The position numbers and the translations under genes were made by a program. The notes beneath the pieces are model-generated. The model worked only from the letters and a program-made list of their open reading frames with translations, ran no database searches and was not told the origin of the DNA. This document shows, piece by piece, positions 34,901 through 37,900 of a stretch of 64,000 nucleotides of DNA. Within the stretch, counting starts at the first letter, position 1; each line of letters begins with the position of its first letter. The stretch lies in assembly GCA_051362555.1 (NCBI GenBank), contig CM120645.1:6386001-6450000 (forward strand). Reading direction: 5' to 3'. This DNA is from Lingula anatina. Lineage: Eukaryota > Animalia > Brachiopoda.

Positions 34901-37900
34901 AACATGTTTTCTTTGAAATGCTGATTTTGACACAGTTTTCAACTAACAAGTATATTAAAGTTCAGAGACTGAGACATGCCTGTGTGCACTGATTTAGCTA
35001 TAAAAATAGTCATAGTTGTACATCACAGTGTGTCATGTTCAACAGAAAACACATACAGGGACTGCTTCTGTTTAGATTAGCTGCACTCTTTGTATTGTTT
35101 GCAAATGCCCTCAAGATCACTCCCAAAATTTTGGAATTTTCTGAGACTTTGGTTATTGCAATGTTAAGTCAATAAAAAAGACCACTTTTTCCATATTACA
35201 CAAATGAGTGAGCACATGTACTTATGCACAGTCTTTAGTAGATCACTTCATTGTTTTGTGTTGTTTATTTTGCACTAACATGTTTGCCTTGATGATTGTT
35301 GCACTTGCACAGATGTGGAAAGGTTTCATCACTCGACGGAAGACGCAGAAGCGCAGAGAGGAGGAGCTTATGTTCATAGGCATGGTAAGGTCACACTTAT
35401 CACATGATGTGCTGATATATAGGTCAAGGTCATGGTCACAGGGGTCAAGGTCACTGCTTGCAGCCAGCAGGGGAGTATTTTGTGAATCTTTTGCTTATGG
35501 CAATTATAACTGAAAGTTTATTCCACCTTAAAGGAATTTTTTATCTAAAGAAAAATCATGATAATATCAAATATATGTGCATTTTTTATATCAAATTTAT
35601 TCATTTTTATCTAATATTTATTATTTTTTATCATTGGTAAAAGAAAAGAAAAGAAAAGATGCTGGTGATACTGTGTCCTTCCCTTGCACCTTGGCTGATG
35701 CTGTATATTGGCATATCAAAAATTATTCACTTGTTAGGCATAACTACCACAGGTTTGGTTTGGTTTTTATGCTGCACTTAACAATAAAACCCAAGACACA
35801 ATAAAAACAATACAAATTTCAACTTATTTCACACTATAGCTGTGGAAGGGGCTGGCACAGAGGAAACGAGCGCTGAGAGAAAGGGACGAGGAATTTATCT
35901 GGCTGGGAATGGTAAATACAAACAAGTCTAGTTTGTTATCTGAGAGTACAAGGACACTGGATGTGACTTTGATATATTGGATTTGATAATTAATTCAAGG
36001 ACAGGATAGTTGACAAATGAAGACCAAAATATTTAGAATTTTAAAAAAGTATATAGTTATGTTATTGGCTTCAGGCAGTTTTATTTTTGGATGAAAAAAT
36101 GCAAACTAATTAATAAGGATAACTGAAATGATGATAATGATTATAATTATTTTAAGAGATAATTATTAGTAACAGTAATTAATCTCGAAAGGAGAGTTAT
36201 ATCAGTGTTTTAATCATTTTAGTTGAGATTTACTTTGAAGTTTTTATAATTTATAAAATGTTAATGCCATTATTTTGACTGTCAAAATATAAGGCTTACT
36301 TTATTGATGATGATGTTTTTAAATGAGAAATTGTTCAAGTCAATTTTGCTGGAGGGTTGATTTGTAAAACAAAATGTATCTGAAATGAATAGTATTCAAT
36401 TGACATAATCTCCTAGTAACTTTGTTTTAAAGATAAGAATTTTGAATGGTCATCAACAGTTACATAAAGGGATCATTACATCCTGATTATATTTTCATCA
36501 TCATCATCATCATGCTTATTCCCATCATTTCAGACACCCCCTCCACCTGCTGCAAACCCAAAGAACACACCCCAGGCCCTTGCCCTCAAGACGGAGGAGA
36601 AACGCCACACAGTCCAGGAAAAGAATGAGCAGGAGTACCAGCAGGCCCTGGTCCTCATTAAGGACAAGATTAAGGAGACGGAGGGCCCTGATATCAAGGA
36701 AACCATGCAGGATCAGATCAGGCAGTGGTTTATTGAATGCAGGTATGGGACAGGAATTGTTGAAGGCTTAGGGGAATTTAGGTTGTCCTATGAAACAGAT
36801 ATTGTAAATTTTTAGTGTCTTGGTTCCTTTTCTTTAGTTTTTGTGTCCATTGCCAATGCTTCACGTTATTTATTCATTCAAAACTCTGTGCCCAAGTACT
36901 GTTTTCCATGCCATTTTCTAAAATGTTGTTGTTCTAAGGTATATTGATGGAACAGTGACTATCTCTTCATAACTTGCTACAATTAAAAGACTCTATGCTT
37001 GATTTTGATTAAAAGAAAAAAAAAACAGACACCATCTAATGAATATTCACTAACATTCACTAGCTAGCTAGTATGTTTTCGAAGTTAGTTTCATGTCATG
37101 ATGAAATGATTGAGAGTAGAAATCAGAAAGAAAAAATAAAATAGTACCTTATTTCTTAGCATTTTTGTCTGACATGGATGTTATTCCTTCTCTAGGGATG
37201 CAACAGGCAAGTTTCCAGAGTATCCTGATGAGGATGAGGGAGGGTCTGCTCTGATCTTCAAGGAGAAAGACCCTGCAGAGATTGAGGCAGAGCTCAAAGC
37301 CAAGGTAATAAAATACACATTTGGGCATCACGATAGGGGCACCTGTGTTACTTTTTGTAGTAAGATTAATGTATAAAATTGTCGAATAACTTTTATGTTT
37401 GCATCCATGCAATTATTAAAATAATGTGTGTTAATATATGTATTAATTTTTCATTCTATAATCATTGATTTTTTCCTATTCGTGAATTTAATAAAACTCT
37501 TGGAAGCATCAGTCATCTTTTCTTGAATTCATTTCTCATATTCTTTGCAGGAGGAAGAGAAAGGTGGAAAAGGAGGGAAAGGAAAAAAGGGGAAGAAGGA
37601 TAAGAAAGAGAAGAAAGGAAAGAAGGACAAAAAAGGAAAGAAGGGGAAGAAAGGAAAAGGAGGTGATGATGATGTAAGTATTCTTGTAAATATTCACTAA
37701 ATTTGAACAAAATGAAAAAAATTATAAGCCATATTTCACAAAATAAAAATTATTTGAATAATTTTGCATGCATCCTGATGACAAGAGTAATTTTAATGTT
37801 TAAATTTCAATGTTCTAAAGTTAATGATTATCATTGTTAAAATGTAACTAAATATTACAATATTGCTTTTCATTAAGTAACATATAGTGCTTAATAACAC

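What the first reader, a model, noticed from the sequence alone, without database searches (positions are those of the whole stretch)
35313..35911. Duplicated 72-nt exons swap the calmodulin-binding IQ motif of IQCA1/DRC11
Seen: the upstream exon ends ...AAIKIQK. Two homologous phase-0 exons of exactly 72 nt follow: A 35313-35384 [24 protein letters not shown] and B 35840-35911 [24 protein letters not shown], each with valid AG/GT sites (A has a CACTAAC branch point). Either completes IQxxWKGxxxR. They are strongly diverged yet both intact, implying selection on both. Inference: mutually exclusive splicing gives two DRC11 isoforms with different calmodulin/EF-hand binding, e.g. sperm flagella versus somatic cilia. 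I do not know of this being described.
Basis: partly seen in the sequence, partly recalled or inferred. Interest (0 to 1): 0.78.

Follow-up and report, generated by a model that had tools for sequence, protein, structure and literature searches.

The report
Swappable helix exon in ciliary DRC11
The brachiopod Lingula splices one of two old, interchangeable 72-base exons into the gene for the cilia-beat regulator DRC11, giving two proteins that differ in the helix predicted to hold a calcium-sensing partner, with likely tissue-biased use and an untested effect on binding.

Summary
The window is the Lingula anatina IQCA1/DRC11 gene. Exons A (35313-35384) and B (35840-35911) are homologous, 72 nt and phase 0. 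RNA reads show upstream-to-A, upstream-to-B, A-to-downstream and B-to-downstream joins. No A-to-B join and no double skip was listed (threshold 3 reads). B made up 0 to 50% of reads, depending on the run. RefSeq's automatic annotation already holds both forms (XP_013416976.1, XP_013416977.1); seven targeted paper searches found no description. The title overstates the swap. I-Q-K lies on the shared exon and the IQ core (W, K, G, R) is the same in both; the changes are at IQ positions 8 and 14 and in the helix tail (LMFI versus FIWL). Altered calmodulin or DRC8 binding and the sperm-versus-cilia idea are untested, because tissues are coded. None of 80 related loci held two copies. B's tryptophan is shared only with flatworms, a hint (not significant) of an ancient duplication. 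How exclusion is enforced is not shown: steric clash, U12 sites and frame shift are excluded, and RNA pairing is at chance level. The scan had not noted this gene before; a similar IQ-exon swap was noted in a calcium channel. Verdict: real, a new member of a known kind.

The parts
33901..34092 (+). Shared upstream exon (DRC11 residues 153-216), ends with I-Q-K, IQ positions 1-3
   Evidence: 100% identical to XP_013416976.1; mapped; junction reads
35273..35279 (+). CACTAAC, candidate branch point of exon A (inferred from consensus)
   Evidence: sequence; not tested
35313..35384 (+). Alternative exon A, residues 217-240 of isoform X1; keeps the common aromatic-8, T-14 and F-24 residues
   Evidence: joined to the upstream exon in 7 of 7 runs laid; joined to the downstream exon in 4 of 4 runs; residue counts
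35385..35839 (+). 455-nt intron between A and B; no A-to-B join listed
   Evidence: candidate branch point of B (CACTTAAC, 35775-35782) lies about 390 nt from A's donor, so no steric clash
35840..35911 (+). Alternative exon B, residues 217-240 of isoform X2; L-8, A-14, F-22, W-24; weak donor
   Evidence: upstream join in X6 (16 reads) and X3 (2); downstream join in X2 (6), X3 (4), X6 (15); XP_013416977.1; donor score 4.2 versus 9.8 for A
36534..36742 (+). Shared downstream exon (residues 241-310)
   Evidence: loose-end consensus behind 35384 and 35911 matches its start; its 3' joint
28907..44824 (+). Whole IQCA1/DRC11 coding span, 17 coding exons per isoform, 845 aa, IQ motif plus AAA domain
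   Evidence: 841 of 845 residues mapped to the window for each isoform; Pfam IQ and AAA; PDB matches 8j07_11, 8glv_Ea, 9fqr_Ok

Best explanation
An old tandem duplication left two working copies of one DRC11 exon, and transcripts carry either A or B; the choice is likely set by cell type through splicing factors, and the swap is predicted to retune, not remove, the helix on which calmodulin or DRC8 sits. Shown: both exons are spliced between the same flanking exons, the protein length is unchanged, 15 residues differ, and B use ranges from 0 to 50% between runs. Predicted (AlphaFold2): the exon is the last two thirds of one helix, residues 207-238, that carries the IQ motif. Inferred: A, with the stronger donor and a consensus branch point, is the default; B is switched on in cells with high DRC11 output. 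Exclusion is inferred to rest on weak acceptors and trans-acting factors, because steric clash, U12 sites and frame shift do not apply. [quoted passage not shown]
For:: upstream-to-A joins in X2 8, X3 5, X5 3, X6 11; upstream-to-B in X3 2, X6 16 (plus 7 and 4 short loose ends); reads from A into the downstream exon 18, 7, 5, 19; from B 6, 4, none listed, 15; upstream-to-A in X1 13, X2 8, X4 5, X7 5. No A-to-B row in either call; under independent inclusion, 2 or fewer such reads of 21 in X6 has p 0.0007 (0.026 with counts halved for mate overlap). Reads over a marker site in B versus A plus B: X1 5 of 34, X2 7 of 28, X3 6 of 14, X4 0 of 10, X5 0 of 6, X6 21 of 42, X7 0 of 7; heterogeneity p 0.0005; within study P2, X4 plus X5 versus X6 p 0.0002 (halved 0.014). 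X6 has about 9 times the DRC11 read density of X5. Both B alleles are expressed in X6 (10 of 23, 11 of 21). RefSeq X1 and X2. Helix H207-238, pLDDT 74-86 over 211-240. B departs from common residues: aromatic at position 8 in 131 of 138 distinct segments, T at 14 in 111 of 138, F at 24 in 124 of 138; Pfam IQ 20.9 bits for A, 15.4 for B, cut-off 20.3. CaM or DRC8 on the IQ motifs of DRC9-11: PMC10266980 (passages); DRC8 needs DRC11 to assemble: 10.1101/684316 (passages).
Against: Counts are small. Heterogeneity falls to p 0.06 with halved counts and is p 0.18 on 3' junction reads of the four runs. Tissue, sex and stage are unknown, so genotype or study effects are not excluded. Joins with under 3 reads are not listed, so rare A-plus-B transcripts could exist. 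Some B reads in X1, X2 and X3 are unspliced on one side, and X2 shows 6 B-to-downstream reads but 0 upstream-to-B joins, so B's share in study P1 is overstated. The IQ core is unchanged, Owenia's single protein also has L at position 8, and A has odd residues too (Q228 in 1 of 138, R230 in 4 of 138). A's acceptor scored lower than B's in a 15-site matrix (-2.5 versus 2.2), which does not fit a simple 'A is stronger' account. No splicing factor was identified. The Chlamydomonas drc11 mutant swims only slightly slower, so any isoform effect may be small.
Confidence: 0.6

Rival explanations
1. The pair is truly mutually exclusive, but the two proteins are functionally near-equal; both exons persist because either is used and must keep the helix intact, and the ratio varies without consequence.
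For: IQ anchors identical; the segment tolerates many substitutions across 138 distinct homologous segments; none of 80 related loci has two copies; mild drc11 phenotype in Chlamydomonas.
Against: B changes three positions that are otherwise well conserved (8, 14, 24) and F to W needs two base changes; B reaches 50% in the run with the highest expression and 0 in three others; long survival of both copies with saturated third positions.
Confidence: 0.25
2. The functional point of the swap is the helix tail (LMFIGM versus FIWLGM), a packing contact within DRC11 or with the N-DRC scaffold, and calmodulin binding is untouched.
For: Four of the 15 differences cluster at 235-238, 11-14 residues behind the IQ arginine; F237, G239 and M240 are held in 124, 125 and 136 of 138 segments; DRC11 contacts DRC4 in the linker tip (PMC10504270, passages).
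Against: Positions 8 and 14, which are hydrophobic anchors in IQ-type motifs (recalled), also differ; no coordinates were available to map contacts.
Confidence: 0.3
3. Exclusion is enforced by competing long-range RNA pairings that loop out A (35162-35184 with 35761-35783) or B (35443-35453 with 35962-35971).
For: Two crossing duplexes exist at the expected places, -14.2 and -13.8 kcal/mol; the mechanism is known for Dscam1 and Ate1 (abstract starts).
Against: The best duplexes are no stronger than shuffles: 10 of 20, 10 of 20 and 3 of 8 shuffles did as well. The two duplexes share no arm, and the first would cover B's own candidate branch point. No second brachiopod sequence was available for covariation.
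Confidence: 0.15
4. B is a haplotype variant, an assembly artefact or a decaying pseudo-exon.
For: B had no reads in X4, X5 and X7.
Against: Both exons lie on one contig and join the same flanking exons; both B alleles are read in X6; both listed B polymorphisms are synonymous; the frame is intact at 50% DNA identity.
Confidence: 0.03

Closest known systems
RefSeq Lingula anatina IQCA1 isoforms X1 and X2 (XP_013416976.1, XP_013416977.1)
   Same: These are the A and B products; both 845 aa, differing only at 15 positions in 217-238.
   Different: Automatic gene models with no statement on exclusivity, usage or function.
Homologous mutually exclusive exons from tandem duplication (Hatje et al. 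2017, PMC5740500, passages read)
   Same: Adjacent, homologous, same length and frame, junction reads bridging the other exon on both sides.
   Different: None of the three simple enforcing mechanisms applies here; the term IQCA1 does not occur in that paper's main text (supplements not checked).
Myosin IB alternative IQ exons (PMC8327911, passage read)
   Same: Alternative use of similar exons changes a calmodulin-binding IQ motif.
   Different: There, alternative inclusion of similar exons yields different motifs that lack the Q and R of the canonical form; here one helix is swapped one for one, the IQ core is kept, and the protein is an axonemal regulator.
[quoted passage not shown]
   Same: Full-length homologue with IQ and AAA domains (E 1.7e-291 to human).
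   Different: No alternative IQ-helix exon was seen in any other protein cluster or locus examined; Tetrahymena instead has two DRC11 paralogues (PMC10504270, passage).

Membership tests
Homologous mutually exclusive exons | Adjacent exons of like length, same frame, homologous sequence | tested here: met
   72 nt each, phase 0, 9 of 24 residues identical, profile scores 68.6 and 56.1 versus -19.8 for the next best site
Homologous mutually exclusive exons | Junction reads from each exon that bridge the other exon | tested here: met
   Upstream-to-B (skips A): X6 16, X3 2; A-to-downstream (skips B): 18, 7, 5, 19 reads
Homologous mutually exclusive exons | No read joining the two exons | tested here: inconclusive
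   No A-to-B row in 7 of 7 runs laid, but joins under 3 reads are not listed; independent inclusion is rejected in X6
Homologous mutually exclusive exons | No skipping of both exons | tested here: inconclusive
   The only loose ends behind 34092 (7 reads, X6) read exon B; nothing listed for the downstream exon at the 3-read threshold; rows near the downstream acceptor were dropped
Exclusion by steric clash, U2/U12 incompatibility or frame shift | Donor-to-branch distance under 50 nt, U12 sites, or length not divisible by three | tested here: not met
   455-nt intron with the candidate branch point about 390 nt from the donor; all GT-AG with GTAA-type donors; 72 nt
Exclusion by competing RNA structures (docking site and selector) | Strong, conserved, competing duplexes | tested here: inconclusive
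   Duplex strength at shuffle level; conservation not testable without a close relative
IQCA1/DRC11 | Full-length homology with IQ motif and AAA domain | tested here: met
IQ calmodulin-binding motif | IQxxx[RK]Gxxx[RK] pattern in a helix | tested here: met
   Both isoforms keep the pattern; helix 207-238 predicted for B; Pfam IQ above cut-off for A (20.9) and below for B (15.4)
IQ calmodulin-binding motif | Binds calmodulin or an EF-hand protein, with isoform-specific affinity | not testable with these tools

The most novel reading that the evidence does not exclude
The exon pair dates from the spiralian ancestor: flatworms kept only the B type (tryptophan tail), molluscs and annelids only the A type, and Lingula kept both as a cell-type switch that changes calcium-sensor loading at the link between doublets, so one animal builds two differently tuned axonemes from one gene. 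Ctenophores would have reached a similar DRC11 switch independently, at other exons.
Probability: 0.15. Interest if true: 0.65.

Novelty: new member of a known kind. Interest (0 to 1): 0.4.

Why it matters
How calcium acts at the nexin link is open: structures place calmodulin or DRC8 on the IQ motifs of DRC9-11, but the function is only suggested (PMC10266980). A natural pair of DRC11 proteins that differ only in this helix, in one genetic background, is a ready test of what the helix does. If usage follows cell type, splicing would join paralogue swapping as a way to specialise axonemes. As it stands it is one more duplicated-exon pair, already in an automatic annotation, in one lineage.

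Tried and rejected
No whole genome is held for this window. A search with residues 196-250 of isoform X2 returned only the Lingula cluster, 1 of 23 candidates. A search of 50%-identity representatives with exon B plus 7 intron-coded residues gave 2 hits with no homologous segment. Cluster members of 30 proteins were listed; no cluster other than Lingula's held a divergent second version of the segment. Flanking introns of A and B show no remaining similarity (22 and 128 of 200 shuffles scored as high). Long-range RNA pairing was at chance level. Placement tests with full branch optimisation failed or timed out and were replaced by a fixed-branch test, in which exon A's own placement was unstable (best next to two long arthropod branches), which limits trust in B's placement. 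The splice-site matrix rests on 15 sites with at least one donor mis-assigned. No complex was predicted: no partner sequence was held. Only isoform B was folded. Paper searches with no relevant description; most subscription papers are not in the library and no supplements were read, so a genome-wide exon table could list this pair.

Full report
Observation. They share 9 of 24 residues and 36 of 72 bases, with third codon positions the most diverged (7 of 24). A profile from 81 non-Lingula homologous segments scores them 68.6 and 56.1 bits against -19.8 for the next best place on the + strand of the window, so there are exactly two copies. The flanking introns keep no detectable similarity, which fits an old duplication (inference).

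Identity. The upstream exon is 100% identical to Lingula anatina IQCA1 isoform X1. Its cluster also holds isoform X2. X1 carries exon A and X2 exon B; both are 845 aa and differ at 15 positions, all within 217-238. 841 of 845 residues of each map to the window. The protein is a full-length homologue of human, Chlamydomonas and Tetrahymena DRC11 chains in solved axoneme structures. So the pair is already present in RefSeq's automatic annotation.

RNA evidence. Nine raw-read runs were listed and seven were laid, at about 6 to 25 in 100 of each run. Upstream-to-A joins appear in 7 of 7 (X1 13, X2 8, X3 5, X4 5, X5 3, X6 11, X7 5). Upstream-to-B joins appear in X6 (16, plus short loose ends) and X3 (2). 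Reads leaving A continue into the exon at 36534 in X2 18, X3 7, X5 5 and X6 19; reads leaving B do so in X2 6, X3 4 and X6 15 (seen as loose ends because that stretch stopped before the downstream exon). No A-to-B join and no double skip was listed; the listing threshold is 3 reads from 2 starts. In X6, independent inclusion would predict about 9 A-to-B reads of 21; 2 or fewer has p 0.0007, or 0.026 with counts halved for overlapping mates. The three polymorphisms listed inside the exons are all synonymous third positions, and both B alleles are read in X6.

Usage varies. Reads over a marker site in B out of A plus B: X1 5 of 34, X2 7 of 28, X3 6 of 14, X4 0 of 10, X5 0 of 6, X6 21 of 42, X7 0 of 7. 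Heterogeneity p is 0.0005 on reads and 0.06 on halved counts; on 3' junction reads alone it is 0.18. Within study P2, X4 plus X5 against X6 gives p 0.0002 (halved 0.014). X6 also has about 9 times the DRC11 read density of X5. Caveats: some B reads in X1, X2 and X3 are unspliced on one side, and X2 has no upstream-to-B join, so its B share is overstated. Tissues are coded, so sperm versus somatic cilia is untested.

What the swap changes. I-Q-K is on the shared exon. W218, K219, G220 and R224 (IQ positions 5, 6, 7, 11) are the same in both. Among 138 distinct segments from 267 non-Lingula proteins, position 8 is aromatic in 131 (A F, B L), position 14 is T in 111 (A T, B A), and position 24 is F in 124 (A F, B W). 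A has rare residues of its own at 228 and 230. Pfam's IQ model gives 20.9 bits for A and 15.4 for B, cut-off 20.3. An AlphaFold2 model of isoform B (46 sequences, mean pLDDT 79.9) puts the motif and the exon in one helix, 207-238. Published work places calmodulin or DRC8 on the IQ motifs of DRC9-11 near the neighbouring doublet (PMC10266980, passages), shows that DRC8 needs DRC11 to assemble and that the drc11 mutant is only slightly slow (10.1101/684316, passages), and models DRC8 on a helical hairpin of DRC11 near the stalk of dynein e (PMC10504270, passages; PMC5909927 passages, for the IQ prediction). That the swap changes binding is my inference.

How exclusion works. Of the mechanisms listed by Hatje et al. 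(PMC5740500, passages), steric clash does not apply (455-nt intron, candidate branch point about 390 nt from A's donor), the sites are ordinary GT-AG, and 72 nt keeps the frame. Inter-intron duplexes are no better than shuffles (10 of 20, 10 of 20, 3 of 8), although two modest crossing duplexes lie at suggestive places. In a rough 15-site matrix both acceptors are weak (A -2.5, B 2.2) and B's donor is weak (4.2 against 9.8). Control by trans-acting factors is therefore the remaining likely route, by elimination and not by direct evidence.

Distribution. None of 80 related loci (best 80 of 84) holds two copies. Fifteen of the 80 have the segment as a separate 72-nt AG/GT exon and reach both flanking exons; they give 12 distinct peptides, all single. 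These loci are unnamed; none could be shown to be a brachiopod, phoronid, nemertean or flatworm. The exon's boundaries are thus old and the duplication is not general in animals. B's W237 occurs in 8 of 138 segments, and all 8 are flatworm (seven genera); every flatworm protein with the segment has it. Placing exon B on a 32-taxon tree favoured flatworm branches (likelihood weight 0.96, resampling 0.66), 7.25 log units above a place beside exon A, but p was 0.10, the test was made after seeing the pattern, it rests on 24 sites, and A's own placement was unstable. Shared ancestry and convergence both remain open.

Literature and earlier notes. Searches for IQCA1 or DRC11 with splicing terms, for Lingula with mutually exclusive exons, and for IQ motifs or cilia with such exons found no description (listings and abstract starts seen). 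Myosin IB is a precedent for splicing that changes IQ motifs (PMC8327911, passage). No supplements were read. The scan's notes hold nothing on this gene; one unreviewed note reports an alternative IQ exon in a calcium channel of another genome.

Verdict. Real and expressed: probability about 0.95 for a mutually exclusive pair. Cell-type-biased use about 0.65. A measurable change in EF-hand binding about 0.35. New member of a known kind; interest 0.4.

Noticed in passing
Proteins P0219, P0321, P0324 (Mnemiopsis) and P0318, P0319, P0322 (Bolinopsis); not in the window: Ctenophore DRC11 isoforms on record differ in two homologous blocks, residues about 435-458 and 460-475, with matching alternatives in both genera. 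This looks like separate mutually exclusive exon pairs in the helix before a lysine-rich loop. Genomic DNA was not seen.
   Followed up: partly
window 29202-32465: A 3.26-kb element with 12-nt terminal inverted repeats and GC-rich sub-terminal repeats sits in the first coding intron of DRC11; likely a DNA transposon. Family not determined.
   Followed up: partly
window 28787-28800: An X-box-like motif (RFX site; consensus recalled) lies about 110 nt upstream of the DRC11 start codon, as is usual for ciliary genes.
   Followed up: no
window 16171-23120, + strand: Exons that read like a thymine-DNA glycosylase gene (recognised from recall translations), with a 146-nt tandem array at about 20800-21550 inside it.
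   Followed up: no
window 33235-33427: In X1 four reads show an extra T at the joint of the exons ending 33236 and starting 33427, most likely an allele at the last exon base and not a new splice site.
   Followed up: no
Proteins P0071, P0075, P0083 (Macrostomum), P0069 (Polyodon isoform X2): Some gene models lack this 24-residue exon or read into the intron at the same boundary; either annotation misses or real skipping of the IQ helix.
   Followed up: no
L004:2275-2346: The homologous 72-nt exon in this unnamed locus ends in a GC donor instead of GT.
   Followed up: no
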